Assembly (NCBI GenBank): GCA_032718475.1
Contig: JAUCBJ010002610.1
Coordinates: 15,782-79,781, forward strand
Reading direction: 5' to 3'
Origin: Nemertoderma westbladi
Lineage: Eukaryota > Animalia > Xenacoelomorpha
Length of the DNA: 64,000 bases
Each line of letters starts with the position of its first letter. Within the stretch, counting starts at the first letter, position 1. The position numbers were made by a program, and so were the translations under genes. Positions 7,343-40,144 of this stretch are shown here, piece after piece. The notes beneath the pieces were generated by a model. The model searched no databases, was not told the origin of the DNA, and was given only the letters and a program-made list of their open reading frames with translations.

Positions 7343-7563
7343 CATGTGAAGAATACCAGAATTTCACTTTTCGGTCGACTTTTTATTGGATTTTTTTTTA
7401 TATGAAGATTTTTTATTTTTTTTTAAATTTATCTTTATTAAGTGTTTTATAGCGCTTATTTCTGTCTTATAACCTGTACATATACTAATTCGTTTATTGT
7501 TTTGGTTAGATTCAGCCCTTCTGTAACCTGTGCTTTTGGTGAAAACCTGGTATTCTTCACATG
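7343..7563. mobile_element. Small MITE-like element with 25-bp terminal inverted repeats
   Basis: CATGTGAAGAATACCAGAATTTCAC (7343-7367) vs reverse complement of 7539-7563, 23/25 match; AT-rich interior; no clear TSD. Confidence 0.6.
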
Positions 7564-11674: not shown

Positions 11675-12421
11675 TAGGGATGTGGCGAATGTCCGCATCC
11701 GCATCCGCGGATATCCGCATGATTTTTCGCATCCGCACCCATGGTATGCGGATGTGACATGCGGATGTTACATGCACTATTCAAGCATCCTGCCTGAAGG
11801 CCCAGCAACCACTCAATTAAATTTTCAATAATAATTACTTTTTCCCTTATGAAATTTTTTTATTTTATCTTAAAACTATCAAAGTATAAGATATCAAAAT
11901 GTCAAAACTGACATCGGAAATGAGTTCGCCGACCTGGAAAACCCCCATAGGCAAATTTTGGTGAGGTCAAATGATTTTGTTTATTTTTTGACCGACAAAC
12001 AGACCGACAAACAGACAGACAAAAAGACAGTTTCTGTAAGAGGAGCAACCTTAGAAGTTCGATTTTGTGTACCAGTGTGTGTGTAGGTGGGGGTTGGGGG
12101 GGGGGGGGGGGGGGGGGGTGTACACGTACATTGTTGTACACTATACAGTATACACTAACACTCGACGGGAACAATATAAAAAATGTTTGTTGTATTTATT
12201 GTTTAGTTATATTATGTCCCATTCTGTTCTATAACCTTAGACTCTTGTTAGTTTATTAATATAAGATTAGAATATAATATTAAAATGCTGGTATAACCTT
12301 GATGTAAAAGGGAGGCCAGGCAAAAATATATATGTTTTAATAGACATCCGCATCCGTGCGGATGTCACTTCAGACATCTGCATCCGCGGATGTTAAAAAT
12401 ATGACATTCGCAACATCCCTA
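11675..12421. mobile_element. hAT-type MITE
   Basis: TIRs TAGGGATGTGGCGAATGTC / GACATTCGCAACATCCCTA; 8-bp TSD GTATATAT (11667-11674 and 12422-12429); subterminal CGCATC/GCGGAT repeats. Confidence 0.88.
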
Positions 12422-12625
12422 GTATATATAATATTAATTGTAATGGTATAACCATGTCTTGCTATTTTACTGTGTTTTTATAGTCCTAAATTTCTTTAAG
12501 GGGCGCAATAAATAAATAATTGATTGTTTCTCTAGTTTCTTTGATTTCAATCCTTTACACATATTTAGTGATTGTAGCATAGACCCTGGGGTGGCACAAC
12601 AATTTGGAAATTTCTCGAAGAGATA

Positions 12626-12662
<37 letters not shown>

Positions 12663-12999
12663 ACAAGAAAACGAATTGACAAATCGTGAAAAATGTTTGG
12701 TTGATGTCTACCGCAAAGCCACCAAAGTTACAATCGGGATCAGTGGTTAGGTCGTGTTGGACTTTTTATAGATGTTAGAAGCGCATTTCGTTGATTTAGT
12801 GGGGGGCCGGTGGGGCTAGGTGAAACAAAAACTGTAAAAAAAAGTTAATATGCTTAGCATTCTAATATGTTAGCATGCCATTTTTATCTCAAATTATTGT
12901 GACAAAAAAATCGGCCCCATTGGAACTGCAATGGTTGATTTATTTGAACAAAAGAGAGAGAGAGAGGAGTGATAGACCTGTTTACTCCCACAGAATCCA

Positions 13000-13290
13000 G
13001 TTCCTTCCCCGCATTGTCCCAATCCATCCAAATGCTGTCCCAGGTTACCACCACATTGTCCAGCCCCTTCTCACTCAATGTCCCAGTCCATCCCCATGCT
13101 GTCCCATGTTACTTCCACATTGTCCAGTCCCTTCCCCGCATTGTCTCAGTCACTCCCCATGCTGTCCCCGGGTACTCCAACGGCGCTCCCACCCACTCCC
13201 ATGGTGTCCCTGTCCAATCCCTTCCCCGCATTGTCCCAGTCCAGTCCCCAGGGGTCGCGAGTTGGTTCCACAGTGCCCCCACACCCAGGG
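13000..13290. repeat. Degenerate low-complexity repeat (CATTGTCCCAGTCCCTTCCCCG-like)
   Basis: Recurrent TTGTCCC / TCCCCGCA / CCATGCTGTCCC motifs directly 5' of the LINE fragment. Confidence 0.7.
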
Positions 13291-13299
13291 ATCATCATC

Positions 13300-14870
13300 G
13301 ACTCAGTGCTGGTACGCGGACGACGCCTCGGCGGCAGGGAGTCTGCGTGGAGTTGCACAGTGTTGGTCCGACCTGCAGCTAAAAGGTTCCCAAATCGGCT
13401 ACTTCCCCGAACCGACCAAAACTTACCTGGTAATAAAGCCAGGGCTGGAGGCAGAAGCCCGGGAAAGGTTCGATGGGAGTGGCGTCCAGATAGTCTCCGG
13501 ACACCGGTTCCTGGGGGGATATATCGGCGATGCCGAGGGACGGAAGCAGTTTGTGTCGGACAAGGTTGCGGGGTGGGTGGGACATATAGACAAACTCTCG
13601 GAGGTTGCCATGGAGTACCCCCAGACTGCTCACACAGGGATGTCCAAGTGTGTGCAGGCTGAATGGGACTTTCTAATGCGGGTAGTCCCAACGGATGTTG
13701 AGGATTTCGCTCCTATCCGGACCGCGCTGCTGCGTCAGTATATCCCCTCCCTGTTCGGTATCCCATTGGGCCCCTCGGACGAGGACTTGGTCCTCCTGCC
13801 TGTTCGCCATGGTGGGATCGGGTTGCAGGACCCCCTAATGCGGTTTGGCCATGCCCGTGCTGCGTCCACCGAGGGGACTTCTCTTGTGGTTGAAGCAATC
13901 CAGTCTGGTCTGCCGCTTCACGTGGCCGACCACACTGTGCGGCTGCGTAAAGTCCTCACCGAGTCGCGGGCCACCCAGGATACCGCGTATAAGGAGAAAC
14001 TGGAGGCCGCACTAGGGGCGCTACCAGCCGAGCGTCGGCGAACCGCGGAGCGGACGACGCGGAACAAGACGCGGGGGGCTGGTTATCGGCCCAGCCGTCT
14101 GTGCTGGACAACACAGACTTGGGGCCTGACGAGTTCCGGGACAACCTCGCCCTTCGTTATGGTCTCACCCCACCCCGCCGGGTCTACCAGTTAAGTGCGA
14201 GGGGCGCGGGGGCCCATTCAGCACCTCCCACGCACTGAGCTGCAAATCCGGGGGCCTAATCATCAAACGTCATGACGAGGTTGGCCAGGTGTTTGGCGAC
14301 CTCTTGGCCTCGGCTTTCGGCCAGTCAAGTGTCGAGCGTGAGGTGACCCTCTCCCAAGGACACATCGACAGACAGGGGCGGGAGATCGGGGGGGTAAGGG
14401 CAGACCTGGTTGCCCGGGGGGTCTGGACCAACCAACGAGTGGCGTCGTTTGACATTGCGATAATCAACGCTGACGCCACCTCGTACGTCCAGGCCAACCG
14501 GTCGACCGAGTCCCTCTTGGAGCAGCGGGCCCGGCTGAAACACGCCCATTACCGGACCGTCTGTGAAGACCGGAGGATGTCCTTTACCCCACTGGTCGGT
14601 ACAACCGACGGCGTATGGTGCAATGAGGCAGAGATTCTCATTCGCCATCTGGCCGAGACCCTTGTCTCGAGACAAGCTGGGATGGCCGAGAGGGGCCTTG
14701 CCTGTGTGCAGGGTGGAGTTCGCCGGAGGATTCAATTCGCCCTCCTCCGATCGAATTCTCTCTGCCTCAGAGGTGGTCGACGGTCTTGGCGCGGGTCGGG
14801 CTTTGGGGATGGGGCAGGTCTGCGGGGGTTCGATCTGACTTGGCTACCCAATACTGAGTTTTATTGTCCT
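13300..14870 (+). mobile_element. 5'-truncated, frameshifted CRE-clade non-LTR retrotransposon (RT C-terminal half, CCHC, restriction-like endonuclease)
   Basis: RT motif QCWYADDASAAG and GYFPEPTKTYLV, LLPVRHGGIGL; after frameshifts near 14070 and 14175: WLSAQPS...EFRDNLALRYG, KCEGRG..FSTSHALSCKSGGLIIKRHDEV, RADLVARGVW...FDIAIINAD, FTPLVGTTDG. Confidence 0.82.
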
Positions 14871-15789
14871 CGTCCTGCCAACGTGTGTATAACATTGTAT
14901 GTATAGTTATACAGTAGGTTTGTTAACTGATACTAGCCATTGTGCGCTATAATTTGATCAAAATATATTATATTGATAATTCATATCGATTGATCAATAC
15001 ATACGAAAATAAAAATGGGACTACCAATGTTTAAGACCATACTTTTTCAGCTTTTTACAAGCCAAGTTCTTCTGCTCAGAAGCATACTCAGTACTCACCC
15101 TCATTGAAGATGTAGACTTTTAGTTCTAGTGATGGTAAGTGACGCATTCTGGTCTCATTGGATCCCCAGAATGCATTGCGATGATGACCACAAGGCCTTG
15201 GCTTGCAATAGGTAATATAATATAGACCGTAACTGCAGTAATGAGTTACTCTTACTTAACAGATCGATTTCTTCCTATATAGTCCAATTAAATAGACCAC
15301 TGCGCTGCCGTGTTAAGGCAAAACACCCTATCTTGAGAAATGTCATTTTGAGAAAATCACGATTTAGTTTGATAGATTGTCCACGCTTAGAATATTTGAT
15401 ACGTAACTCAGCAATGGTCCCCAAGGTGGTAAAAAATGCGCAGAATTTTTGTGGTATATACCTAGAAGTACTTTAAACACTAGATGGCGCCAAAATAATA
15501 GGTAGGGTGTTTTGCCAAAAATATTTTTGATAGAATCCGACCTGTCATTACCCTATCTCACACATAGGGTATTATTTGATAGATAGGGTAAATATGTTAT
15601 TGAACTAATAGTACTGTGGTGTTACACACAATTTGAGACAATTTATTTTCTTAATAACTCAGTTCCATTTAAAGCAAATTTATTCTTCAAGGCGACATAT
15701 GAAAGCCAGATTATTAATTAAAACAGTTAAAACAATTAATATACAACCAGTAAATTAGACAAATGTTTCTTGACTAATGTATTTGTGAG

Positions 15790-18700
15790 TTAGTTATCTT
15801 TACTGCGGCTCAGCTCGTTCCAAAACTTCATTCTATTCGGAGGAATAATCGATCCTAGACGTCGTATTAATTCTTCTAGTCTGTCAGCAGGTACACCTTT
15901 AGGTTCCTTTAAGAAATTGGGAACTAGGAAGCTTGCGTTTCTCTTCATAATATCACCTGCTACTATCCAATTAGCATCACTGTTGTAGTTCACCTTATAC
16001 TTCATCAAACGTAAACCTTTCTCGAATCGCAATGCTACAATTGACTTTAATAGCGGAAACGTACCCATTTCTCGACACTTGTTAAGTTTATAAGTAGAAG
16101 TTTCATTGGTCCAATCGTGAACGTCACTGTGGTTGACAATCATCACCTCTGATTTATAATTGGCGGCTTTCTTAACACACTTAGCAAAGTCTTGGAAATC
16201 GTAAACTTTCTTCATAGCCTTTATTTCTTTATTGACAAGTCTATGCAGGTTGTCTGCAGACATGGAAGAGTGGTGTGGCTCGAAATACCATAATTCGACA
16301 GCATCCTGTCCCATGAATTGAATCAATGTAAGAAGGCATGAGAAGAGTGTGTAATTTTTGTTTTGGGCTCCGCAATTGTCCAACCAAATCTTCACCAACT
16401 TCTTATCGCGCACTGAATTCAGAAAATAAAAGAATGTGGAAGCTATATCTTCGTCGTTACGACCATGTTCCCCATCGTGCCATATGGCGCAAAATACATC
16501 CTCATTAATTCGGTGCTTTCCGAGGGGAACGAAAGATTCGTGAAAAGCCACGATTCGCCGCAGGAACTGTACATCTTTAAACATCTCAAGTACAGGCAAC
16601 ATTATTACTTTCTGTAAATCAGCAGAAACTATGGTCATTGATTCATCCCTTTGTATCTCAGCATCCCTCTGATAGCAATCCCTGGAGCGCTGGAGGCAAC
16701 GGCACGGTCACAATGGGCTTGATGTTCAGCACAAATATCACATACAGATCCTTCAGAACTCGTGGCTGCAGTTGATGCACATGCATGTAGAGAATATGCT
16801 TCGCATTTAATACATTCTTCATGTCCCAATTGTGCGAAAGATATATTCATAGATCTGAATACTTGACAGTATTTTTGGTATTCAACAGGATGTTCGGGGT
16901 GCTTCATATTGCAATCTTCATTAAGGGCAACTAATGTAAATTCCGAAGGTAAGTATCGTCTATTTGGTGCATGCTCATATCGATAATGAGCTATTTCAGG
17001 CTGGTATGATTCTATATGCGCTTTAATAGGGGCATCAGAAATTTTATTGGCGGGTTCGTGTCGGCCGCGGGTATCTTTATGAGGAACTACATCGCTTACA
17101 GATCCCCTCAATGCCGTCTTTATTGGTTGATTGTTACTTGCTTTATACCCCAGTGTTGTCAAAATAAATTTTTGACAAACTTGACTCCGATCACCAGCTT
17201 CACTTGTGAGAAAATATTTACAAATCTTCTTTTTACGTTTTTGTGTAGCTGGAATAGATTGTTCTATTGAAGATAGCAGAAATTGGTTTCTTTGACTAGG
17301 TCCCATTGACCAAAAACTATCTCTTAAATACTGACGTCGATCTTCCCCAATACTTAATTTGCAACGAAGTTGACACATCACTACATACCGATGCTTTAAT
17401 TATATGTATCTCTCCTTTCCTTAACATTTGTTCTTTCTCCGTTCTCGCCCGAGGCTTTATAGGTGGTCTTTGACGTTTCTTCTTGTTCACTGGACGTATT
17501 TGATCTTCAGCAGATGCATCAGTAGTGTCTTCGGTAGTATCCTCAGAAACATTACCTGACAGTGGAAGCCATTCCTCTTCTATATCTTCCTCAGAGCTAT
17601 TGGACTGAATTTGGTTGGTGTTTGTCTCTATTTCAGGTGACATTTGGCCGTGACTCGGAACATTTAAAGATGGTCTGATTTCTATATCGAGCATCTCCAC
17701 ATTATCTGTATTACTGGTATAATAAAATAAACTATTCAGTATATCTTCAGCACTTTCCAAGTTACTCTGGGTCGTTCCAAGTTCGACCGATTCACCCTGC
17801 ACCGTTCCAAGTTCGACCGATTCACCCTGCACCGTTTCAAGTTCGACCGATTCACCCTGCACCGTTCCAAGTTCGACCGATTCACCCTGCACCGTTCCAA
17901 GTTCGACTGAGTCACCCTGGGCCGTTCCAACTTCGACCGAGTCACCCTGGGCCATTCCGAGTTCGACCGAATCACCCTGGGCCATTCTAAGTTCGACCGA
18001 GTCACCCTGGGCCATTCCGAGTTCGACCGAATCACCCTGGGCCGTTCCAACTTCGACCAAATCACCCTGGGCCATCCCAAGTTCGACCGAATCACCCTGG
18101 GCCGTTCCAACTTCGACCAAATCACCCTGGGCCATCCCAAGTTCGACCGAGTCACCCTGGGCCATTCCGAGTTCGACCGAATCACCCTGGGCCATTCTAA
18201 GTTCGACCGAGTCACCCTGGGCCATTCCAAGTTCGACTGAGTCACCCTGGGCCATTCCGAGTTCGACCAAGTCACCCTGGGCCATTCCAAGTTCGACCGA
18301 TTCACCCTGCACCGTTTCAAGTTCGACCGATTCACCCTGCACCGTTCCAAGTTCGACTGAGTCACCCTGGGCCGTTCCAAGTTCGACCGAATCACCCTGG
18401 GCCATTCCAAGTTCGACCGAGTCACCCTGTGCCATTCCAAGTTCGACCGAGTCAGCCTGGAGCGTTTCGACCGAGTCACCCTGGGCCATTCCGAGTTCGA
18501 CCGAGTCACCCTGGGCCATTCCGAGTTCACCCTGGGCCATTCTGAGTTCGACCGAATCACCCTGGGCCATTCCAAGTTCGACTGAGTCACCCTGGGCCAT
18601 TCCAAGTTCGACCGAGTCACCCTGGGCCATTCCAAGTTCGACCGAGTCAGCCTGGAGCGTTTCGACCGAGTCACCCTGGGCCATTCCGAGTTCGACCGAG

Positions 18701-18837
18701 TCACCCTGGGCCATCCTTTTGGGGTAGGATCTTGTAACTGGTATGTTCCTTTTTTTCCTTCTCCTGTGCCGATTTGACTCAAATCCCATAAAAACTTCCC
18801 CATCATCGTCGTCACTCTCGTTGTGCTCAAAATACAT
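15790..18837 (-). pseudogene. Sola-type DDD transposase in three frames
   Basis: ORFs 17317-18837, 16635-17381 and 15790-16638. Motifs VCQKFILTTLG, DTRGRH, HYRYEHAPNRRYLP, ECIKC, SADLQKVIMLP (D1), WLDNCGAQNKN (D2), HSSMSADNLH (D3). Frame breaks near 17385 and 16690. Confidence 0.82.
17760..18715 (-). repeat. 30-bp coding tandem repeat (~32 units) encoding ELGMAQGDSV in the transposase N-terminus
   Basis: Unit on + strand GTCACCCTGGGCCATTCCAAGTTCGACCGA; in frame in ORF 17317-18837. Confidence 0.95.
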
Positions 18838-19848
18838 GCTGAATAAACTCCGACTTTAAAACTATAATATATTTATATATAACTATTTATACCATAACCA
18901 TAAATACTATTAATTTAGTTTAAAGCTAATAATATGCTTTGATATTATGGCATTTTATTCTAGGTCTAGTTCATTGACGGTGTTTGCAAATTTGTGCTCG
19001 CTTCGCTAGCGTTATTCGTTCTATTTGACCTACTCTATTACCTACATCTATACGTTATTACGCCGAAAATTTGTGTCGGTGAAGCACAGATTTTTTGCTT
19101 AGGTCAAGTGTTGAAGAGCAATTCCAGGGCAGTATGCCATAATTTGAAATCTGGCAAAATACCCTATCTATACCAAAAGGGTGTTGTTCATTTCAAATTT
19201 CCCTCTTTATGTACTTAGTTCGAAATTACAGTCATTATGAGGCTCAATATTATAACTATTATAATGGCATTGACAGCGGCGACCTTATTCTTTCCTTAGA
19301 CTCCGTTAACCCTATATTAAGATGTAAATACCCTATCTCATTTATATTGATATAGGTTATTGTAAAATGCCCAAATATTTTTAGGCAATATACCCTATCT
19401 GTTCCAGCTCGCGATAGGGTGTTTTGCCTTAACATAAAGGACAAATAGGTGTTTTATAGGGTATTTTGCCACCTGAAAACTCTATTTTGCGCTCTGAAAC
19501 AGCCTTATCGTTCTATACTGTTAGATAGAGCGTAAAATTTTATGTGGATTTGTAAAATAAAAAAAAATTTATATTTTTTGAGATAGGGTGTTTTGCCTTA
19601 ACACGGCAGTGCGGTTCCAATGAGATAAAAGAAACCGCAGATACACGACACAAAGTAAAAGCTTACCTACACTACTAAGAATTAAGTACAGTTCGATAAC
19701 ATCGCAAAACATTATAATATTTAATATTTTTAATTGTTAATAATAAATTTAAGAAAATAACACGCATCTCAGTCTCACAAATATTAACTTTTTTTTTACA
19801 GTTTTAGTCTTACCTACCGGCTACCCCCACTAAATCAAATCTGAATAT

Positions 19849-22800
19849 GTTACTAACTCACCCTCCTATCCCTCTAGGAACCCAAATCAGTTAGTAACTC
19901 ACTCTCGTATCCCTCTAGGTACCCAAATCAGTTAGTAACTCACCCTCATATCTCTTTAGGAACCCAAATCAGTTAATAACTCACCCTCGTATCTCTCTAG
20001 GAACCCAAATCAGTTACTAACTCACCCTCCTATCCCTCTAGGAACCCAAATCAGTTACTAACTCACCCTCCTATCCCTCTAGGAACCCAAATAAGTTAGT
20101 TACTCACCCTCCTATCTCTCTAGGAACCCAAATCAGTTAGTTACTCACCCTCCTATCTCTCTAGGAACCCAAATCAGTTAGTAACTCACCCTGTTATCTC
20201 TCTAAACCCAAATCAGTTACTAACTCACCCTCCTATCCCTCTAGGAACCCAAATCAGTTAGTAACTCACCCTCCTATCTCTCTAGGAACCCAAATCAGTT
20301 AGTAACTCACCCTGTTATCTCTCTAAACCCAAATCAGTTACTAACTCACCCTCCTATCCCTCTAGGAACCCAAATCAGTTAGTAACTCACCCTCCTATCC
20401 CTCTAGGAACCCAAACCAGTTAGTAACTCACCCTCCTATCTCTCTAGGAACCCAAACCAGTTAGTAACTCACCCTCCTATCTCTCTAGGAACCCAAATCA
20501 GTTAGTAACTCACCCTCCTATCTCTCTAGGAACCCAAATCAGTTAGTAACTCACCCTCCTATCCCTCTAGGAACCCAAACCAGTTAGTAACTCACCCTCC
20601 TATCTCTCTAGGAACCCAAATCAGTTAATAACTCACCCTCGTATCTCTCTAGGAACCCAAATCAGTTACTAACTCATCCTCCTATCCCTCTAGGAACCCA
20701 AACCAGTTAGTAACTCACCCTCCTATCTCTCTAGGAACCCAAATAAGTTAGTAACTCACCCTCCTATCTCTCTAGGAACCCAAATCAGTTAGTAACTCAC
20801 CCTCCTATCCCTCTAGGAACCCAAATCAGTTAGTAACTCACCCTCCTATCCCTCTAGGAACCCAAATCAGTTAGTAACTCACCCTCCTATCCCTCTAGGA
20901 ATCCAAATCAGTTAGTAACTCACCCTCCTATCTCTCTAGGAACCCAAATCAGTTAGTAACTCACCCTCATATCTCTCTAGGAACCCAAATCAGTTGTAGT
21001 AACTCACCCTCATATCTCTCTAGGAACCCAAATAAGTTAGTAACTCACCCTCCTATCCCTCTAAGCACCCAAATCAGTTAGTAACTCACCCTCATATCTC
21101 TCTAGGAACCCAAATCAGTTGTAGTAACTCACCCTCATATCTCTCTAGGAACCCAAATAAGTTAGTAACTCACCCTCCTATCTCTCTAGGAACCCAAATA
21201 AGTTAGTAACTCACCCTCCTATCTCTCTAGGAACCCAAATCAGTTGTAGTAACTCACCCTCATATCACTCTAGGAACCCAAATCAGTTAGTAACTCACCC
21301 TCCTATCCCTCTAGGAATCCAAATCAGTTAGTAACTCACCCTCCTATCTCTCTAGGAACCCAAATCAGTTAGTAACTCACCCTCATATCTCTCTAGGAAC
21401 CCAAATCAGTTGTAGTAACTCACCCTCATATCTCTCTAGGAACCCAAATAAGTTAGTAACTCACCCTCCTATCCCTCTAAGCACCCAAATCAGTTAGTAA
21501 CTCACCCTCATATCTCTCTAGGAACCCAAATCAGTTGTAGTAACTCACCCTCATATCTCTCTAGGAACCCAAATAAGTTAGTAACTCACCCTCCTATCTC
21601 TCTAGGAACCCAAATAAGTTAGTAACTCACCCTCCTATCTCTCTAGGAACCCAAATCAGTTGTAGTAACTCACCCTCATATCTCTCTAGGAACCCAAATC
21701 AGTTAGTTACTCACCCTCCTATCTCTCTAGGAACCCAAATAAGTTAGTAACTCACCCTCCTATCTCTCTAGGAACCCAAATCAGTTGTAGTAACTCACCC
21801 TCATATCTCTCTAGGAACCCAAATAAGTTAGTAACTCACCCTCCTATCCCTCTAGGAACCCAAACCAGTTATAGTAACTCACCCTCCTATCTCTCTAGGA
21901 ACCCAAATCAGTTAGTAACTCACCCTATTATCTCTCTAGGAACCCAAATAAGTTAGTAACTCACCCTCCTATCTCTCTAGGAACCCAAATCAGTTGTAGT
22001 AACTCACCCTCATATCTCTCTAGGAACCCAAATCAGTTACTAACTCACCCTCCTATCCCTCTAGGAACCCAAATCAGTTACTAACTCACCCTCCTATCCC
22101 TCTAGGAACCCAAATAAGTTAGTAACTCACCCTCATATCTCTCTAGGAACCCAAATAAGTTAGTAACTCACCCTCCTATCTCTCTAGGAACCCAAATCAG
22201 TTACTAACTCACCCTCCTATCCCTCTAGGAACCCAAATCAGTTACTAACTCACCCTCCTATCCCTCTAGGAACCCAAATCAGTTAGTAACTCACCCTCCT
22301 ATCCCTCTAGGAACCCAAATCAGTTAGTAACTCACCCTCCTATCCCTCTAAGCACCCAAATCAGTTAGTAACTCACCCTCATATCTCTCTAGGAACCCAA
22401 ATCAGTTGTAGTAACTCACCCTCATATCTCTCTAGGAACCCAAATAAGTTAGTAACTCACCCTCCTATCTCTCTAGGAACCCAAATAAGTTAGTAACTCA
22501 CCCTCCTATCTCTCTAGGAACCCAAATCAGTTGTAGTAACTCACCCTCATATCTCTCTAGGAACCCAAATAAGTTAGTAACTCACCCTCCTATCTCTCTA
22601 GGAACCCAAATCAGTTACTAACTCACCCTCCTATCCCTCTAGGAACCCAAATCAGTTAGTAACTCACCCTCATATCTCTCTAGGAACCCAAATCAGTTGT
22701 AGTAACTCACCCTCATATCTCTCTAGGAACCCAAATAAGTTAGTAACTCACCCTCCTATCTCTCTAGGAACCCAAATCAGTTACTAACTCACCCTCCTAT

Positions 22801-25800
22801 CCCTCTAGGAACCCAAATCAGTTAGTAACTCACCCTCCTATCCCTCTAGGAACCCAAATCAGTTAGTAACTCACCCTCCTATCCCTCTAAGCACCCAAAT
22901 CAGTTAGTAACTCACCCTCATATCTCTCTAGGAACCCAAATCAGTTGTAGTAACTCACCCTCATATCTCTCTAGGAACCCAAATAAGTTAGTAACTCACC
23001 CTCCTATCTCTCTAGGAACCCAAATAAGTTAGTAACTCACCCTCCTATCCCTCTAAGCACCCAAATCAGTTAGTAACTCACCCTCATATCTCTCTAGGAA
23101 CCCAAATCAGTTGTAGTAACTCACCCTCATATCTCTCTAGGAACCCAAATAAGTTAGTAACTCACCCTCCTATCTCTCTAGGAACCCAAATAAGTTAGTA
23201 ACTCACCCTCATATCTCTCTAGGAACCCAAATCAGTTGTAGTAACTCACCCTCATATCTCTCTAGGAACCCAAATAAGTTAGTAACTCACCCTCCTATCT
23301 CTCTAGGAACCCAAATAAGTTAGTAACTCACCCTCCTATCTCTCTAGGAACCCAAATAAGTTAGTAACTCACCCTCCTATCTCTCTAGGAACCCAAATCA
23401 GTTAGTAATTCAACCTCCTATCTCTCTAGGAACCCAAATCAGTTAGTAACTCACCCTCCTATCCCTCTAGGAACCCAAATCAGTTAGTAACTCACCCTCA
23501 TATCTCTTTAGGAACCCAAATCAGTTAGTAACTCACCTTCATATCTCTCTAGGAACCCAAATCAGTTAGTTACTCACCCTATCTCTCTAGAACCCAAATA
23601 AGTTAGTAACTCACCCTCATATCTCTCTAGGGACCCAAATAAGTTAGTAACTCACCCTCATATCTCTCTAGGAACCCAAATCAGTTAGTTACTCACCCTC
23701 CTATCTCTCTAGGAACCCAACTAAGTTAGTAACTCACCCTCATATCTCTCTAGGAACCCAAATAAGTTAGTAACTCGCCCTCATATCTCTCTAGTAACCC
23801 AAATAAGTTAGTAACTCACCCTCCTATCTCTCTAGGAACCCAAATCAGTTAGTTACTCACCCTCCTATCCCTCTAGGAACCCAAATCAGTTAGTAACTCA
23901 CCCTCCTATCTCTCTAGGAACCCAACTAAGTTAGTAACTCACCCTCATATCTCTCTAGGAACCCAAATCAGTTAGTTACTCACCCTCCTATCTCTCTAGG
24001 AACCCAAATAAGTTAGTAACTCACCCTCATATCTCTCTAGGAACCCAAATCAGTTAGTTACTCACCCTCCTATCTCTCTAGGAACCCAAATAAGTTAGTA
24101 ACTCACCCTCATATCTCTCTAGGAACCCAAATCAGTTAGTTACTCACCCTCCTATCTCTCTAGGAACCCAAATAAGTTAGTAACTCACCCTCCTATCTCT
24201 CTAGGAACCCAAATCAGTTAGTAACTCACCCTCGTATCTCTCTAGGAACCCAAATCAGTTAGTTACTCACCCTCCTATCTCTCTAGGAACCCAAATAAGT
24301 TAGTAACTCACCCTCATATCTCTCTAGGAACCCAAATCAGTTAGTTACTCACCCTCCTATCTCTCTAGGAACCCAAATAAGTTAGTAACTCACCCTCATA
24401 TCTCTCTAGGAACCCAAATCAGTTAGTAACTCACCTTCATATCTCTCTAGGAACCCAAATAAGTTAGTAACTCACCCTCATATCTCTCTAGGAACCCAAA
24501 TCAGTTAGTTACTCACCCTCCTATCTCTCTAGGAACCCAAATAAGTTAGTAACTCACCCTCATATCTCTCTAGGAACCCAAATCAGTTAGTTACTCACCC
24601 TCCTATCTCTCTAGGAACCCAAATAAGTTAGTAACTCACCCTCCTATCTCTCTAGGAACCCAAATAAGTTAGTAACTCACCCTCATATCTCTCTAGGAAC
24701 CCAAATCAGTTAGTTACTCACCCTCCTATCTCTCTAGGAACCCAAATAAGTTAGTAACTCACCCTCATATCTCTCTAGGAACCCAAATCAGTTAGTTACT
24801 CACCCTCCTATCTCTCTAGGAACCCAAATAAGTTAGTAACTCACCCTCATAGCTCTCTAGGAACCCAAATCAGTTAGTTACTCACCCTCCTATCTCTCTA
24901 GGAACCCAAATAAGTTAGTAACTCACCCTCATATCTCTCTAGGAACCCAAATCAGTTAGTTACTCACCCTCCTATCTCTCTAGGAACCCAAATAAGTTAG
25001 TAACTCACCCTCCTATCTCTCTAGGAACCCAAATAAGTTAGTAACTCACCCTCATATCTCTCTAGGAACCCAAATCAGTTAGTTACTCACCCTCCTATCT
25101 CTCTAGGAACCCAAATAAGTTAGTAACTCACCCTCATATCTCTCTAGGAACCCAAATCAGTTAGTTACTCACCCTCCTATCTCTCTAGGAACCCAAATAA
25201 GTTAGTAACTCACCCTCATATCTCTCTAGGAACCCAAATCAGTTAGTTACTCACCCTCCTATCTCTCTAGGAACCCAAATAAGTTAGTAACTCACCCTCA
25301 TATCTCTCTAGGAACCCAAATCAGTTAGTTACTCACCCTCCTATCTCTCTAGGAACCCAAATAAGTTAGTAACTCACCCTCATATCTCTCTAGGAATCCA
25401 AATAAGTTAGTAACTCACCCTCATATCTCTCTAGGAACCCAAATCAGTTAGTTACTCACCCTCCTATCTCTCTAGGAACCCAAATAAGTTAGTAACTCAC
25501 CCTCATATCTCTCTAGTAACCCAAATCAGTTAGTAACTCACCCTCGTATCTCTCTAGGAACCCAAATCAGTTAGTTACTCACCCTCCTATCTCTCTAGGA
25601 ACCCAAATAAGTTAGTAACTCACCCTCATATCTCTCTAGGAACCCAAATCAGTTAGTTACTCACCCTCATATCTCTCTAGGAACCCAAATCAGTTAGTTA
25701 CTCACCCTCCTATCTCTCTAGGAACCCAAATAAGTTAGTAACTCACCCTCATATCTCTCTAGGAACCCAAATCAGTTAGTTACTCACCCTCCTATCTCTC

Positions 25801-28800
25801 TAGGAACCCAAATAAGTTAGTAACTCACCCTCATATCTCTCTAGGAATCCAAATAAGTTAGTAACTCACCCTCATATCTCTCTAGGAACCCAAATCAGTT
25901 AGTTACTCACCCTCCTATCTCTCTAGGAACCCAAATAAGTTAGTAACTCACCCTCATATCTCTCTAGGAACCCAAATCAGTTAGTTACTCACCCTCCTAT
26001 CTCTCTAGGAACCCAAATAAGTTAGTAACTCACCCTCATATCTCTCTAGGAATCCAAATAAGTTAGTAACTCACCCTCATATCTCTCTAGGAACCCAAAT
26101 CAGTTAGTTACTCACCCTCCTATCTCTCTAGGAACCCAAATAAGTTAGTAACTCACCCTCATATCTCTCTAGGAATCCAAATAAGTTAGTAACTCACCCT
26201 CATATCTCTCTAGGAACCCAAATCAGTTAGTAACTCACCCTCATATCTCTCTAGGAACCCAAATAAGTTAGTAACTCACCCTCCTATCTCTCTAGGAACC
26301 CAAATAAGTTAGTAACTCACCCTCATATCTCTCTAGGAACCCAAATAAGTTAGTAACTCACCCTCATATCTCTCTAGGAACCCAAATAAGTTAGTAACTC
26401 ACCCTCGTATCTCTCTAGGAACCCAAATCAGTTAGTTACTCACCCTCCTATCTCTCTAGGAACCCAAATAAGTTAGTAACTCACCCTCATATCTCTCTAG
26501 GAACCCAAATCAGTTAGTTACTCACCCTCCTATCTCTCTAGGAACCCAAATAAGTTAGTAACTCACCCTCCTATCTCTCTAGGAACCCAAATAAGTTAGT
26601 AACTCACCCTCATATCTCTCTAGGAACCCAAATAAGTTAGTAACTCACCCTCATATCTCTCTAGGAACCCAAATAAGTTAGTAACTCACCCTCGTATCTC
26701 TCTAGGAACCCAAATCAGTTAGTTACTCACCCTCCTATCTCTCTAGGAACCCAAATAAGTTAGTAACTCACCCTCATATCTCTCTAGGAACCCAAATCAG
26801 TTAGTTACTCACCCTCCTATCTCTCTAGGAACCCAAATAAGTTAGTAACTCACCCTCATATCTCTCTAGGAATCCAAATAAGTTAGTAACTCACCCTCAT
26901 ATCTCTCTAGGAACCCAAATCAGTTAGTTACTCACCCTCCTATCTCTCTAGGAACCCAAATAAGTTAGTAACTCACCCTCCTATCTCTCTAGGAACCCAA
27001 ATCAGTTAGTAACTCACCCTCCTATCTCTCTAGGAACCCAAATAAGTTAGTAACTCACCCTCATATCTCTCTAGGAACCCAAATCAGTTAGTTACTCACC
27101 CTCCTATCTCTCTAGGAACCCAAATAAGTTAGTAACTCACCCTCATATCTCTCTAGGAACCCAAATCAGTTAGTTACTCACCCTCCTATCTCTCTAGGAA
27201 CCCAAATAAGTTAGTAACTCACCCTCCTATCCCTCTAGGAACCCAAATAAGTTAGTAACTCACCCTGTTATCTCTCTAAACCCAAATCAGTTAGTTACTC
27301 ACCCTCCTATCTCTCTAGGAACCCAAATAAGTTAGTAACTCACCCTCATATCTCTCTAGTAACCCAAATCAGTTAGTTACTCACCCTCCTATCTCTCTAG
27401 GAACCCAAATCAGTTAGTAACTCACCCTATTATCTCTCTAGGAACCCAAATCAGTTAGTAACTCACCCTATTATCTCTCTAGGAACCCATATCAGTTAGT
27501 AACTCACCCTCATATCTCTCTAGTAACCCAAATCAGTTAGTTACTCACCCTCCTATCTCTCTAGGAACCCAAATCAGTTAGTTACTCACCCTCCTATCTC
27601 TCTAGGAACCCAAATCAGTTAGTAACTCTCCCTCATATCTCTCTATAGGAACCCAAACCAGTTAGTAACTCATCCTCATATCTCTCTATAGGAACCCAAA
27701 CCAGTTAGTAACTCACCCTCATATCTCTCTAGGAACCCAAATAAGTTAGTAACTCACCCTCCTATCTCTCTAGGAACCCAAATAAGTTAGTAACTCACCC
27801 TCCTATCCCTCTAAGCACCCAAATCAGTTAGTAACTCACCCTCATATCTCTCTAGGAACCCAAATCAGTTGTAGTAACTCACCCTCATATCTCTCTAGGA
27901 ACCCAAATAAGTTAGTAACTCACCCTCCTATCTCTCTAGGAACCCAAATAAGTTAGTAACTCACCCTCATATCTCTCTAGGAACCCAAATCAGTTGTAGT
28001 AACTCACCCTCATATCTCTCTAGGAACCCAAATAAGTTAGTAACTCACCCTCCTATCTCTCTAGGAACCCAAATAAGTTAGTAACTCACCCTCCTATCTC
28101 TCTAGGAACCCAAATAAGTTAGTAACTCACCCTCCTATCTCTCTAGGAACCCAAATCAGTTAGTAATTCAACCTCCTATCTCTCTAGGAACCCAAATCAG
28201 TTAGTAACTCACCCTCCTATCCCTCTAGGAACCCAAATCAGTTAGTAACTCACCCTCATATCTCTTTAGGAACCCAAATCAGTTAGTAACTCACCTTCAT
28301 ATCTCTCTAGGAACCCAAATCAGTTAGTTACTCACCCTATCTCTCTAGAACCCAAATAAGTTAGTAACTCACCCTCATATCTCTCTAGGGACCCAAATAA
28401 GTTAGTAACTCACCCTCATATCTCTCTAGGAACCCAAATCAGTTAGTTACTCACCCTCCTATCTCTCTAGGAACCCAACTAAGTTAGTAACTCACCCTCA
28501 TATCTCTCTAGGAACCCAAATAAGTTAGTAACTCGCCCTCATATCTCTCTAGTAACCCAAATAAGTTAGTAACTCACCCTCCTATCTCTCTAGGAACCCA
28601 AATCAGTTAGTTACTCACCCTCCTATCCCTCTAGGAACCCAAATCAGTTAGTAACTCACCCTCCTATCTCTCTAGGAACCCAACTAAGTTAGTAACTCAC
28701 CCTCATATCTCTCTAGGAACCCAAATCAGTTAGTTACTCACCCTCCTATCTCTCTAGGAACCCAAATAAGTTAGTAACTCACCCTCATATCTCTCTAGGA

Positions 28801-31800
28801 ACCCAAATCAGTTAGTTACTCACCCTCCTATCTCTCTAGGAACCCAAATAAGTTAGTAACTCACCCTCATATCTCTCTAGGAACCCAAATCAGTTAGTTA
28901 CTCACCCTCCTATCTCTCTAGGAACCCAAATAAGTTAGTAACTCACCCTCCTATCTCTCTAGGAACCCAAATCAGTTAGTAACTCACCCTCGTATCTCTC
29001 TAGGAACCCAAATCAGTTAGTTACTCACCCTCCTATCTCTCTAGGAACCCAAATAAGTTAGTAACTCACCCTCATATCTCTCTAGGAACCCAAATCAGTT
29101 AGTTACTCACCCTCCTATCTCTCTAGGAACCCAAATAAGTTAGTAACTCACCCTCATATCTCTCTAGGAACCCAAATCAGTTAGTAACTCACCTTCATAT
29201 CTCTCTAGGAACCCAAATAAGTTAGTAACTCACCCTCATATCTCTCTAGGAACCCAAATCAGTTAGTTACTCACCCTCCTATCTCTCTAGGAACCCAAAT
29301 AAGTTAGTAACTCACCCTCATATCTCTCTAGGAACCCAAATCAGTTAGTTACTCACCCTCCTATCTCTCTAGGAACCCAAATAAGTTAGTAACTCACCCT
29401 CCTATCTCTCTAGGAACCCAAATAAGTTAGTAACTCACCCTCATATCTCTCTAGGAACCCAAATCAGTTAGTTACTCACCCTCCTATCTCTCTAGGAACC
29501 CAAATAAGTTAGTAACTCACCCTCATATCTCTCTAGGAACCCAAATCAGTTAGTTACTCACCCTCCTATCTCTCTAGGAACCCAAATAAGTTAGTAACTC
29601 ACCCTCATAGCTCTCTAGGAACCCAAATCAGTTAGTTACTCACCCTCCTATCTCTCTAGGAACCCAAATAAGTTAGTAACTCACCCTCATATCTCTCTAG
29701 GAACCCAAATCAGTTAGTTACTCACCCTCCTATCTCTCTAGGAACCCAAATAAGTTAGTAACTCACCCTCCTATCTCTCTAGGAACCCAAATAAGTTAGT
29801 AACTCACCCTCATATCTCTCTAGGAACCCAAATCAGTTAGTTACTCACCCTCCTATCTCTCTAGGAACCCAAATAAGTTAGTAACTCACCCTCATATCTC
29901 TCTAGGAACCCAAATCAGTTAGTTACTCACCCTCCTATCTCTCTAGGAACCCAAATAAGTTAGTAACTCACCCTCATATCTCTCTAGGAACCCAAATCAG
30001 TTAGTTACTCACCCTCCTATCTCTCTAGGAACCCAAATAAGTTAGTAACTCACCCTCATATCTCTCTAGGAACCCAAATCAGTTAGTTACTCACCCTCCT
30101 ATCTCTCTAGGAACCCAAATAAGTTAGTAACTCACCCTCATATCTCTCTAGGAATCCAAATAAGTTAGTAACTCACCCTCATATCTCTCTAGGAACCCAA
30201 ATCAGTTAGTTACTCACCCTCCTATCTCTCTAGGAACCCAAATAAGTTAGTAACTCACCCTCATATCTCTCTAGTAACCCAAATCAGTTAGTAACTCACC
30301 CTCGTATCTCTCTAGGAACCCAAATCAGTTAGTTACTCACCCTCCTATCTCTCTAGGAACCCAAATAAGTTAGTAACTCACCCTCATATCTCTCTAGGAA
30401 CCCAAATCAGTTAGTTACTCACCCTCATATCTCTCTAGGAACCCAAATCAGTTAGTTACTCACCCTCCTATCTCTCTAGGAACCCAAATAAGTTAGTAAC
30501 TCACCCTCATATCTCTCTAGGAACCCAAATCAGTTAGTTACTCACCCTCCTATCTCTCTAGGAACCCAAATAAGTTAGTAACTCACCCTCATATCTCTCT
30601 AGGAATCCAAATAAGTTAGTAACTCACCCTCATATCTCTCTAGGAACCCAAATCAGTTAGTTACTCACCCTCCTATCTCTCTAGGAACCCAAATAAGTTA
30701 GTAACTCACCCTCATATCTCTCTAGGAACCCAAATCAGTTAGTTACTCACCCTCCTATCTCTCTAGGAACCCAAATAAGTTAGTAACTCACCCTCATATC
30801 TCTCTAGGAATCCAAATAAGTTAGTAACTCACCCTCATATCTCTCTAGGAACCCAAATCAGTTAGTTACTCACCCTCCTATCTCTCTAGGAACCCAAATA
30901 AGTTAGTAACTCACCCTCATATCTCTCTAGGAATCCAAATAAGTTAGTAACTCACCCTCATATCTCTCTAGGAACCCAAATCAGTTAGTAACTCACCCTC
31001 ATATCTCTCTAGGAACCCAAATAAGTTAGTAACTCACCCTCCTATCTCTCTAGGAACCCAAATAAGTTAGTAACTCACCCTCATATCTCTCTAGGAACCC
31101 AAATAAGTTAGTAACTCACCCTCATATCTCTCTAGGAACCCAAATAAGTTAGTAACTCACCCTCGTATCTCTCTAGGAACCCAAATCAGTTAGTTACTCA
31201 CCCTCCTATCTCTCTAGGAACCCAAATAAGTTAGTAACTCACCCTCATATCTCTCTAGGAACCCAAATCAGTTAGTTACTCACCCTCCTATCTCTCTAGG
31301 AACCCAAATAAGTTAGTAACTCACCCTCCTATCTCTCTAGGAACCCAAATAAGTTAGTAACTCACCCTCATATCTCTCTAGGAACCCAAATAAGTTAGTA
31401 ACTCACCCTCATATCTCTCTAGGAACCCAAATAAGTTAGTAACTCACCCTCGTATCTCTCTAGGAACCCAAATCAGTTAGTTACTCACCCTCCTATCTCT
31501 CTAGGAACCCAAATAAGTTAGTAACTCACCCTCATATCTCTCTAGGAACCCAAATCAGTTAGTTACTCACCCTCCTATCTCTCTAGGAACCCAAATAAGT
31601 TAGTAACTCACCCTCATATCTCTCTAGGAATCCAAATAAGTTAGTAACTCACCCTCATATCTCTCTAGGAACCCAAATCAGTTAGTTACTCACCCTCCTA
31701 TCTCTCTAGGAACCCAAATAAGTTAGTAACTCACCCTCCTATCTCTCTAGGAACCCAAATCAGTTAGTAACTCACCCTCCTATCTCTCTAGGAACCCAAA

Positions 31801-34800
31801 TAAGTTAGTAACTCACCCTCATATCTCTCTAGGAACCCAAATCAGTTAGTTACTCACCCTCCTATCTCTCTAGGAACCCAAATAAGTTAGTAACTCACCC
31901 TCATATCTCTCTAGGAACCCAAATCAGTTAGTTACTCACCCTCCTATCTCTCTAGGAACCCAAATAAGTTAGTAACTCACCCTCCTATCCCTCTAGGAAC
32001 CCAAATAAGTTAGTAACTCACCCTGTTATCTCTCTAAACCCAAATCAGTTAGTTACTCACCCTCCTATCTCTCTAGGAACCCAAATAAGTTAGTAACTCA
32101 CCCTCATATCTCTCTAGTAACCCAAATCAGTTAGTTACTCACCCTCCTATCTCTCTAGGAACCCAAATCAGTTAGTAACTCACCCTATTATCTCTCTAGG
32201 AACCCAAATCAGTTAGTAACTCACCCTATTATCTCTCTAGGAACCCATATCAGTTAGTAACTCACCCTCATATCTCTCTAGTAACCCAAATCAGTTAGTT
32301 ACTCACCCTCCTATCTCTCTAGGAACCCAAATAAGTTAGTAACTCACCCTCATATCTCTCTAGTAACCCAAATCAGTTAGTTACTCACCCTCCTATCTCT
32401 CTAGGAACCCAAATCAGTTAGTAACTCTCCCTCATATCTCTCTATAGGAACCCAAATCAGTTAGTAACTCACCCTATTATCTCTCTAGGAACCCATATCA
32501 GTTAGTAACTCACCCTCATATCTCTCTAGTAACCCAAATCAGTTAGTAACTCACCCTCGTATCTCTCTAGGAACCCAAATCAGTTAGTAACTCACCCTAT
32601 TATCTCTCTAGGAACCCATATCAGTTAGTAACTCACCTTCATATCTCTCTAGGAACCCAAATCAGTTAGTAACTCACCCTATTATCTCTCTAGGAACCCA
32701 TATCAGTTAGTAACTCACCCTCATATCTCTCTAGTAACCCAAATCAGTTAGTTACTCACCCTCCTATCTCTCTAGGAACCCAAATAAGTTAGTAACTCAC
32801 CCTCCTATCTCTCTAGGAACCCAAATCAGTTAGTAACTCTCCCTCATATCTCTCTATAGGAACCCAAACCAGTTAGTAACTCACCCTCCTATCTCTCTAG
32901 GAACCCAAATCAGTTAGTTACTCACCCTCCTATCTCTCTAGGAACCCAAATAAGTTAGTAACTCACCCTCATATCTCTCTAGTAACCCAAATCAGTTAGT
33001 TACTCACCCTCCTATCTCTCTAGTAACCCAAATCAGTTAGTTACTCACCCTCATATCTCTCTAGTAACCCAAATCAGTTAGTTACTCACCCTCCTATCTC
33101 TCTAGGAACCCAAATAAGTTAGTAACTCACCCTCATATCTCTCTAGTAACCCAAATCAGTTAGTTACTCACCCTCCTATCTCTCTAGGAACCCAAATCAG
33201 TTAGTAACTCTCCCTCATATCTCTCTATAGGAACCCAAACCAGTTAGTAACTCACCCTCGTATCTCTCTAGGAACCCAAATCAGTTAGTAACTCACCCTA
33301 TTATCTCTCTAGGAACCCAAATCAGTTAGTTACTCACCCTCCTATCTCTCTAGGAACCCAAATAAGTTAGTAACTCACCCTCATATCTCTCTAGTAACCC
33401 AAATCAGTTAGTTACTCACCCTCCTATCTCTCTAGGAACCCAAATCAGTTAGTAACTCTCCCTCATATCTCTCTATAGGAACCCAAACCAGTTAGTAACT
33501 CACCCTCGTATCTCTCTAGGAACCCAACTAAGTTAGTAACTCACCCTCATATCTCTCTAGGAACCCAAATCAGTTACTAACTCACCCTCATATCTCTCTA
33601 GGAACCCAAATCAGTTAGTTACTCACCCTCCTATCTCTCTAGGAACCCAAATCACTTAGTAACTCACCCTCCTATCCCTCTAGGAACCCAAACCAGTTAG
33701 TAATTCAACCTCCTATCTCTCTAGGAACCCAAATCAGTTAGTTACTCACCCTGTTATCTCTCTAAACCCAAATAAGTTAGTAACTCACCCTCCTATCTCT
33801 CTAGGAATCCAAATAAGTTAGTAACTCACCCTCATATCTCTCTAGGGACCCAAATAAGTTAGTAACTCACCCTCGTATCTCTCTAGGAACCCAAATCAGT
33901 TAGTAACTCACCCTATTATCTCTCTAGGAACCCATATCAGTTAGTAACTCACCTTCATATCTCTCTAGGAACCCAAATCAGTTAGTAACTCACCCTATTA
34001 TCTCTCTAGGAACCCATATCAGTTAGTAACTCACTTTCATATCTCTCTAGGAACCCAAATCAGTTAGTAACTCACCCTGTTATCTCTCTAAACCCAAATC
34101 AGTTAGTTACTCACCCTCCTATCTCTCTAGGAACCCAAATCAGTTAGTAACTCACCCTGTTATCTCTCTAAACCCAAATCAGTTAGTTACTCACCCTCCT
34201 ATCCCTCTAGGAACCCAAATCAGTTAGTAAATCACCCTCCTATCTCTCTAGGAATCCAAATCAGTTATAGTAATTCACCCTCCTATCCCTCTAGGAACCC
34301 AAATCAGTTAGTAACTCACCCTATTATCTCTCTAGGAACCCATATCAGTTAGTAACTCACCTTCATATCTCTCTAGGAACCCAAATAAGTTAGTAACTCA
34401 CCCTCATATCTCTCTAGTAACCCAAATCAGTTAGTTACTCACCCTCCTATCTCTCTAGGAACCCAAATCAGTTAGTTACTCACCCTCCTATCTCTCTAGG
34501 AACCCAAATCAGTTAGTAACTCACCCTCATATCTCTCTAGGAACCCAAATCAGTTAGTAACTCACCCTCATATCTCTCTAGGAACCCAAATCAGTTAGTA
34601 ACTCACCCTCATATCTCTCTAGGAACCCAAATCAGTTAGTAACTCACCCTCATATCTCTCTAGGAACCCAAATCAGTTAGTAACTCACCCTCGTATCTCT
34701 CTAGGAACCCAAATCAGTTAGTTACTCACCCTCCTATCTCTCTAGGAACCCAAATAAGTTAGTAACTCACCCTCATATCTCTCTAGGAACCCAAATCAGT

Positions 34801-35773
34801 TAGTTACTCACCCTCCTATCTCTCTAGGAACCCAAATCAGTTAGTAACTCACCCTCATATCTCTCTAGGAACCCAAATCAGTTAGTAACTCACCCTCCTA
34901 TCTCTCTAGGAACCCAAATCAGTTAGTTACTCACCCTCCTATCTCTCTAGGAACCCAAATCAGTTAGTAACTCACCCTCCTATCTCTCTAGGAACCCAAA
35001 TCAGTTAGTTACTCACCCTCCTATCTCTCTAGGAACCCAAATCAGTTAGTTACTCACCCTCCTATCTCTCTAGGAACCCAAATCAGTTAGTAACTCACCC
35101 TCCTATCTCTCTAGGAACCCAAATCAGTTAGTAACTCACCCTCATATCTCTCTAGGAACCCAAATCAGTTAGTTACTCACCCTCATATCTCTCTAGGAAC
35201 CCAAATCAGTTAGTAACTCACCCTCATATCTCTCTAGGAACCCAAATCAGTTAGTAACTCACCCTCTTATCTCTCTAGGAACCCAAATCAGTTAGTAACT
35301 CACCCTCATATCTCTCTAGGAACCCAAATCAGTTAGTAACTCACCCTCATATCTCTCTAGGAACCCAAATCAGTTAGTAACTCACCCTCCTATCTCTCTA
35401 GGAACCCAAATCAGTTAGTTACTCACCCTCCTATCTCTCTAGGAACCCAAATAAGTTAGTAACTCACCCCCCTATCTCTCTAGGAACCCAAACCAGTTAG
35501 TAACTCACCCTGTTATCTCTCTAAACCCAAATCAGTTAGTTACTCACCCTCCTATCTCTCTAGGAACCCAAATCAGTTATAGTAACTCACCCTCATATCT
35601 CTCTAGGAACCCAAATAAGTTAGTAACTCACCCTCCTATCTCTCTAGGAACCCAAATCAGTTAGTAACTCACCTTCATATCTCTCTAGGAACCCAAACCA
35701 GTTAGTAACTCACCCTCCTATCCCAGAGGAACCCAAACCAGTTAGTAACTCACCCTCCTATCCCAGAGGAACC
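19849..35773 (-). repeat. 41-bp satellite (~390 copies) derived from the GGT exon-3 / intron donor junction
   Basis: Minus-strand unit GGTTCCTAGAGAGATAGGAGG|GTGAGTTACTAACTGATTTG vs the genuine junction GGTTCCTCTGGGATAGGAGG|GTGAGTTACTAACTGGTTTG at 35773-35734. Confidence 0.97.
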
Positions 35774-35905
35774 ACTGTGGATCACAGATATACAAAATGT
35801 TGCCGCCACTGCCGCGTCCACTGCATTCCCGCCGCTCTGTAGAATTTTCGTACCGACTTGGGAACATTGAGTGGCGTCGCTCGCTACTGCACCGTGCGGG
35901 AGAAC
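35754..35905 (-). CDS. GGT7: GGT7-like gamma-glutamyltransferase, coding exon 3 (152 nt)
   Basis: TTCTAG| VLPHGAVASDATQCSQVGTKILQSGGNAVDAAVAATFCISVIHSGSSGIGG |GTGAGT; GGT N-terminal signature GAV..D..CS..G..IL..GGNAVDAAVA...SSGIGG. Phase 0 start, phase 2 end. Confidence 0.92.
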
Positions 35906-36628: not shown

Positions 36629-36825
36629 AGGTGGAACTCCTATAACATTTTCCACTATAACACCGATTGTCAAGGCAACTGCGAGAACTATAGAAGAGCC
36701 TATAATCACATAAAGTTGAGTCTTTTCGCTGCCACATTTAGAATCCCATAAACCTCGTCCTTCTGAGCTCAACGGAGTTTTCTCAGACAGATCGCTGTTG
36801 CGTGAAGCCAAGGGCAATGTGTCCG
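36629..36825 (-). CDS. GGT7: GGT7-like gene, coding exon 2 (cytosolic tail plus type II transmembrane anchor)
   Basis: TTGTAG|CG GAC ACA TTG... DTLPLASRNSDLSEKTPL...LYVIIGSSIVLAVALTIGVIVENVIGVPP|GTGAGT; phase 0 end joins exon 3 in frame. Long tail and TM followed by G.P resemble GGT7 more than GGT1; paralogue assignment is tentative. Confidence 0.8.
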
Positions 36826-40110: not shown

Positions 40111-40144
40111 CTGCACCGTCACCGGCGCCTTTATTTGAAGCCAT
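40111..40144 (-). CDS. GGT7: GGT7-like gene, probable first coding exon
   Basis: GCAATGG Kozak context; ATG GCT TCA AAT AAA GGC GCC GGT GAC GGT GCA G|GTAAGT; the phase-1 donor matches the 2-nt CG start of exon 2 (MASNKGAGDGA-A-DTLPL...). Confidence 0.7.

What the first reader, a model, noticed from the sequence alone, without database searches (positions are those of the whole stretch)
19849..35773. 16-kb satellite made of ~390 copies of a live exon/intron donor junction
Seen: the array begins exactly at the end of GGT exon 3. The unit is the last 20 nt of the exon plus the first 20 nt of the intron. The first extra copy is an exact 40-mer (GGTTCCTCTGGGATAGGAGG|GTGAGTTACTAACTGGTTTG); the rest are a derived 41-mer that keeps G|GTGAGT in nearly every copy. 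The pre-mRNA therefore carries hundreds of consensus U1 sites behind the real one. Skipping the true donor reads GGG TGA, an immediate stop. Inference: this is a satellite whose origin can be read directly. It may act as a U1 snRNP landing array (decoy donors, protection from premature polyadenylation across a >35-kb intron, or NMD-coupled control), or may simply be tolerated. Short duplications of exon ends are known; function at this scale is not established.
Basis: partly seen in the sequence, partly recalled or inferred. Interest (0 to 1): 0.85.

Follow-up and report, generated by a model that had tools for sequence, protein, structure and literature searches.

The report
Giant splice-donor repeat in GGT intron
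In an invertebrate's gamma-glutamyl transpeptidase (GGT) gene, the last 20 bases of an exon and its splice signal are repeated about 388 times (16 kb) into the next intron, yet the one RNA-like assembly seen is spliced at the first signal, so this is likely a tolerated, oversized example of a repeat type known from lancelets and a few human genes.

Summary
Observation confirmed. A 41-bp array (387 full units plus one partial, 19849-35773) starts 20 nt inside GGT exon 3; 369 of 385 derived units keep G|GTGAGT. One run that behaves as RNA joins exon 2 to exon 3 and exon 3 in frame to an exon 4 outside the window, through the first donor. Two DNA samples carry the array and its far junction. The build is known: lancelet "mirages" and human F7, CBS, IFI6, LMNB2, PDGF minisatellites (5-26 copies); only the size is new. 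A U1-array function is unsupported: donor positions mutate at the normal rate (7 changes, 6.8 expected) and the array holds no poly(A) signal. An exact 4.6-kb internal duplicate leaves the length uncertain (about 270-390 units). The scan already noted many giant donor and acceptor arrays in this genome and smaller ones in other genomes (unchecked notes), so the genome-wide pattern is the better question.

The parts
40111..40144 (-). candidate first coding exon of GGT (ATG to GTAAGT donor)
   Evidence: sequence and frame fit with exon 2; not checked against RNA
36629..36825 (-). GGT exon 2, encodes the predicted membrane anchor
   Evidence: AG/GTGAGT borders and open frame; its 3' end is the loose end of an X4 contig at 35905
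35754..35905 (-). GGT exon 3 (152 nt); its donor at 35754/35753 is the first and used one
   Evidence: PF01019, human GGT1 match E 5.5e-10, X4 contigs cover exactly 35754-35905 with loose ends at both borders
35734..35773 (-). unit 1: last 20 nt of exon 3 plus first 20 nt of the intron (real donor)
35694..35733 (-). unit 2: exact 40-nt copy of unit 1; likely absent in run X1
19849..35693 (-). 385 derived units (mostly 41 nt) plus a partial end unit; pseudo-donor in 369 of 385; also a CTAAC branch-point-like word (351 of 385) and a gained CTAG (362 of 385) 12 nt before the next pseudo-donor
22948..32332 (.). two exact copies of a 4,627-bp block, 4,758 bp apart (32332-27706 and 27574-22948)
19781..19848 (.). 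far junction; flank is a fragment of a dispersed repeat (81% copy at 12791-12851, inverted)
   Evidence: bridged by contigs of X1 and X2 (19700-19883) and nearly so by X3 (to 19878)

Best explanation
The array is a junction-spanning ('mirage') minisatellite: a stretch holding the end of GGT exon 3 and its splice donor was duplicated and likely grew by slippage and unequal exchange to hundreds of copies, and it is likely tolerated because the spliceosome takes the first donor. Shown: the units derive from the exon end; the array and its far junction exist in two DNA samples; the mRNA seen uses donor 1 in frame. Inferred: the copies fall in the intron, so the protein is unchanged; exon definition from the exon-3 acceptor and 5'-to-3' donor choice favour donor 1, as shown for human F7; any transcript cut at a later donor carries a stop right after the exon and would be cleared by NMD; growth to 16 kb reflects this genome's array turnover rather than a job for the copies.
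For: Units. Splicing at donor 1 into an in-frame exon 4 that continues the GIGGGGF motif as in homologues P0005 and P0007. Array and junction in samples S1 and S2. Exon half has decayed for coding: stop codon in the derived units, 6 distinct changes at -5/-4. Donor positions -1..+6 carry 7 distinct changes against 6.8 expected, GT alone 4 against 2.0. Block-wise variant pattern and an exact 4.6-kb repeat show ordinary array turnover. Two other long tandem arrays lie in the same window. Precedent: only the most upstream donor is used in F7, LMNB2, PDGF (PMC1557585); mirages do not disturb splicing (PMC3087553; PMC3902484).
Against: Donor-breaking changes stay at 1-5 copies against a median of 7-8 for other changes (one-sided p 0.017 raw, 0.015 without the duplicated block, 0.036 and 0.054 after merging linked changes), and -1..+6 is the least changed of 41 possible 7-nt windows. 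The RNA evidence is one run, assembled contigs that drop rare forms, with no NMD block, labelled 'DNA?' by the tool, from a sample whose array genotype is unknown. In IFI6 and CBS the next two pseudo-donors are used (PMC1557585). No array-free allele was seen in 2 DNA samples.
Confidence: 0.72

Rival explanations
1. The array has no job, but its donors are kept because they mask the copies' own cryptic acceptors. Each derived unit has a branch-point-like word starting 7 nt after its donor and an AG 12 nt before the next donor; U1 on the donor would block that branch point. A unit that loses its donor would expose an acceptor and create a 12-nt cryptic exon inside a conserved GGT motif, so donor-less units would be weakly purged.
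For: Donor-breaking changes do not spread; a toy neutral simulation gave p<=0.05 in 3.7% and p<=0.02 in 0.8% of 1,424 usable runs of 1,500. CTAAC in 351 and CTAG in 362 of 385 units. The 12-nt piece keeps the frame; among the 12 commonest forms it has a stop in 148 of 366 units.
Against: Only 6-7 events in one haplotype; several statistics were tried; the summed-copy test gives p 0.076 and GT alone p 0.52. The pyrimidine tract is poor. By the type table (read by eye) donor-less units keep their branch-point word and are followed by intact AG units, yet persist at up to 5 copies.
Confidence: 0.13
2. One reading: the copies load many U1 snRNPs and so protect the long intron from premature polyadenylation, or feed an NMD-coupled switch that sets GGT level.
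For: [quoted passage not shown] Array seen in both DNA samples. Weak donor retention.
Against: The array has no AATAAA/ATTAAA; 42 of the 45 hexamers beyond it are more than 1 kb from the last copy, past the 0.5-1 kb reach cited in PMC5499120. The listed X4 loose end at the donor shows only the normal exon 4 (36 loose ends not shown). Depth hints that copy number differs between samples.
Confidence: 0.05
3. The array is real but its assembled length or its join is wrong: the exact 4.6-kb repeat is an assembler duplicate (true size about 270 units), or the sequence beyond the array is not GGT intron 3. This does not exclude the best explanation.
For: Zero differences over 4,627 bp while the next longest exact repeat is 415 bp. 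Summed depth ratios 1272 (X1), 685 (X2), 102 (X3) against 2664 simulated for the assembled array and 1862 without the block. Exon 4 is absent from the window and an opposite-strand F-box gene lies beyond the array.
Against: Recent unequal exchange also gives exact blocks. X2 and X3 are one sample yet differ about sevenfold, so the depth measure is crude, and X1 differs from the window in sequence. Both ends of the array are joined to the same flanks in public runs.
Confidence: 0.25

Closest known systems
Human F7 IVS7 37-bp VNTR, with IFI6 (6-16), CBS intron 13, LMNB2 and PDGF intron 4 minisatellites (PMC1557585: abstract, synopsis, introduction and passages read; the other genes only as cited there)
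   Same: First monomer spans the exon-intron border; the donor is reiterated in the intron; unit size in range (37 bp in F7); only the most upstream donor is used in F7, LMNB2 and PDGF.
   Different: 5-9 (F7), 25 pseudo-sites (6-16), 15-20 (CBS), 10-15 (LMNB2), 16-18 (PDGF) copies against about 388 (or about 270) here; here the derived unit also gained an acceptor-like AG.
Amphioxus 'mirage' minisatellites: Adh3, globins BflGb6 and BflGb9, troponin C, PGBD5 (PMC3087553 and PMC3902484, passages read)
   Same: Tandem repeats of an exon-intron border in an invertebrate, several loci per genome, splice signals kept in many units, no disturbance of normal splicing, length instability, mechanism of origin stated as unclear.
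   Different: 2-7 units in the globin and PGBD5 cases read, against hundreds here; higher-order blocks up to 4.8 kb.

Membership tests
junction-spanning (mirage / F7-type) minisatellite | first monomer spans a real exon-intron border | tested here: met
   unit 1 = 35773-35734 across the donor at 35754/35753 that RNA-like contigs use
junction-spanning (mirage / F7-type) minisatellite | head-to-tail copies reiterate the splice signal in the intron | tested here: met
   369 of 385 derived units keep G|GTGAGT
junction-spanning (mirage / F7-type) minisatellite | normal mRNA still made, from the outermost site | tested here: met
   one run (X4): in-frame exon 3 to exon 4 join at donor 1, contig depth 562; rare forms not visible
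junction-spanning (mirage / F7-type) minisatellite | copy number varies between alleles | tested here: inconclusive
   exact unit 2 seems absent in X1; depth ratios differ between samples but also within one sample
functional U1-binding element (telescripting or decoy array) | splice motif more conserved than the rest of the unit | tested here: inconclusive
   7 changes vs 6.8 expected; spread lower, one-sided p 0.015-0.054; summed copies p 0.076
functional U1-binding element (telescripting or decoy array) | poly(A) signals within about 1 kb downstream of the U1 sites | tested here: not met
   0 hexamers in the array; 3 of 45 beyond it lie within 1 kb of the last copy
functional U1-binding element (telescripting or decoy array) | U1 binding and a phenotype on removal | not testable with these tools
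   needs CLIP and deletion

The most novel reading that the evidence does not exclude
This genome amplifies splice junctions themselves into giant satellites by a process aimed at exon borders, and within such an array the splicing machinery shapes repeat evolution: units that lose the donor are held back because U1 on each copy hides the branch point next to it. The array would then be a self-silencing satellite and a natural 388-fold test of 5' splice-site choice.
Probability: 0.13. Interest if true: 0.7.

Novelty: new member of a known kind. Interest (0 to 1): 0.3.

Why it matters
As a single locus it shows that first-donor choice holds with hundreds of equal or stronger donors downstream, over ten times the published cases found, and it is a satellite whose seed can be read. 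That extends a known rule; it does not overturn one. It would matter more if the weak retention of donors holds across arrays, or if a genome-wide count shows arrays starting at splice sites more often than chance, since PMC3087553 calls the origin of mirages unclear.

Tried and rejected
No genome held, so no genome-wide scan and no exon 4 position. First Pfam scan of exon 3 used a wrong frame (redone). tblastn of 121 GGT-family proteins found only exon 3; the next best cluster (19313-19492, E 0.008, 28% identity, inside a transposon) was judged noise. A 20-nt exon-4 motif had no match in the window at up to 4 mismatches. First unit split was faulty and was replaced. X4 has no depth on array units: a hole proves nothing and is not used as evidence. 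X2 and X3 have no cover on exon 3, same caveat. No loose end showing an array-free allele among those listed (36 not shown). A 24-nt junction pattern found 0 matches in metagenome contigs. Depth could not settle 270 versus 388 units. No look-up near this place in earlier findings. Paper searches found no report of a junction array with hundreds of copies; the library lacks most subscription papers, and supplements were not opened. PMC10078293 (passages) did not address this build. A UPF3A splice-donor VNTR that I recall gave 0 papers and is not used. A GGT7 assignment rests on recall only and is not claimed.

Full report
What is there. A GGT gene runs on the minus strand: candidate exon 1 (40144-40111), exon 2 (36825-36629) and exon 3 (35905-35754), in one frame with AG/GT borders. 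Exon 3 matches PF01019, human GGT1 and 279 of 1,568 candidates, all 120 listed with PF01019. No later GGT exon lies in the window.

The array. TRF gives 387.5 copies of 41 bp at 93%. I count 387 full units from 35773 and one partial unit ending at 19849, 57 distinct sequences. Unit 1 is the last 20 exon bases and the first 20 intron bases; unit 2 is identical. The other 385 share a change that puts a stop and an AG in the exon half; 369 keep G|GTGAGT and 12 lost the GT. The exon half encodes the conserved GGT motif only in the real exon, so the direction exon to satellite is secure. The intron half has no outside witness, because no array-free allele was seen. A 4,627-bp block is repeated exactly 4,758 bp away; the next longest exact repeat is 415 bp.

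Is it real? Of 22 runs listed, 4 from one organism held 0.28-0.69 of the words; these 4 (3 samples) were laid. X1 and X2 have single contigs across the far junction (19700-19883), X3 to 19878, at depths 12.7, 26.4 and 16.5, with summed depth of 1,700-18,000 on the units. Summed ratios of 1272, 685 and 102 compare with 2664 simulated from the assembled array and 1862 without one block: an array of order 100 or more units in two samples, exact size unsettled. X1's exon-3 contig starts at 35727 and a loose end there is a derived unit; with the exact second copy a graph would break at 35744, so that copy may be a recent local slip and not the founding intermediate.

Is the gene working? X4, labelled 'DNA?', covers exactly 35754-35905 and leaves by two loose ends: the end of exon 2, and a new sequence that continues the frame with the GIGGGGF motif seen in homologues. 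So GGT is expressed and donor 1 is used. Limits: one run, contigs only, no NMD block, array genotype of that animal unknown, 36 loose ends not shown.

Are the donors maintained? Against: positions -1..+6 carry 7 distinct changes where 6.8 are expected, GT alone 4 where 2.0 are expected; summed changed copies give p 0.076 against random positions, GT alone 0.52. For: -1..+6 is the least changed of 41 contiguous 7-nt windows, and the 7 donor changes reach 1-5 copies (median 2) against a median of 8 for the 31 others, one-sided p 0.017, 0.015 without the duplicated block. Merging linked changes by hand gives 0.036 (7 vs 28) and 0.054 (6 vs 26, two ancestral states dropped); a toy neutral model was not over-liberal. 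With several statistics tried on one haplotype this is a hint, not a result.

Would U1 on the copies do anything? By a crude pairing count 369 copies equal or beat the real donor, 107 beat it, so U1 could bind. But the array has no AATAAA or ATTAAA, and only 3 of the 45 hexamers in the 19.8 kb beyond it are within 1 kb; U1 protection reaches about 500-1000 nt (PMC5499120, passages). Use of any later donor meets a stop at once and would feed NMD; that cannot be seen here. The 29-nt spacing is too short to splice, and U1 on a donor would overlap the branch point beside it (inference). That gives a reason, without any function, why donor-less units might be purged.

What is known. PMC1557585 (abstract, synopsis, introduction, passages) describes minisatellites whose first monomer spans an exon-intron border in F7, 6-16, CBS, LMNB2 and PDGF, with 5-26 units, and shows 5'-to-3' choice of the first donor even against better U1 matches. 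PMC3087553 and PMC3902484 (passages) describe lancelet mirages that do not disturb splicing and whose origin is unclear. The primary papers on those genes were not read. Nine searches found no junction array with hundreds of copies; the library is partial and supplements were not opened.

Context from the scan. Unchecked notes list many giant donor arrays (about 400-2,100 copies) and acceptor arrays in this genome, and smaller ones in other genomes. I tested none. They gave me the mirage papers, and if true they weaken a U1-specific purpose, since acceptor arrays bind no U1, and shift interest to how this genome amplifies exon borders. They are also a selected sample, so enrichment over chance is not shown.

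Verdict. Real, well-described observation; new and very large member of a known kind; most likely tolerated through first-donor choice (0.72). Interest 0.3. The boldest open reading, splicing-driven retention of donors and border-directed amplification, has probability about 0.13 and would deserve 0.7.

Noticed in passing
window 4166-6637 (+): Single 823-aa open frame for an FBXO41-like F-box protein (42-46% identity to hemichordate, annelid, brachiopod and echinoderm proteins), on the strand opposite GGT and apparently nested in its intron 3.
   Followed up: partly
window 15305-19609: DNA transposon with 29-bp terminal inverted repeats (read by eye), frames with a weak DUF7869 match and a 30-bp x 32 coding repeat, 240 bp from the far end of the array.
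   Followed up: no
window 252-2838: Second long array, 49 bp x 53 copies, 96% matches; no exon border recognised at its ends by eye.
   Followed up: no
window 47401-49998 (-): 865-aa open frame downstream of a Pao/BEL retrotransposon pol; its C-terminal part resembles DNA_pol_A_exo1 3'-5' exonuclease clusters by Atlas features (0.91-0.92, family on 17-40% of members), no Pfam hit. With the 497-aa frame at 44700-46193 it may be extra cargo of the element.
   Followed up: partly
window 51612-57294 (-) and 57174-64000: Pao/BEL element (PF05380, PF18701, PF17921) abutting a 3,936-bp tandem repeat, 99.97% identical over 2,891 bp, that holds a 1,085-aa frame which looks Penelope-like by recall only (no Pfam hit).
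   Followed up: no
window 19849-24200: Units that keep the exon's G at -10 cluster at the far end of the array (28 of 36 within the last 105 units), and none also keeps the real intron's G at +16: the far end holds older states.
   Followed up: partly
window 12866-14906 (+): Two overlapping frames that look like a reverse-transcriptase retroelement fragment (recall; no Pfam hit).
   Followed up: no
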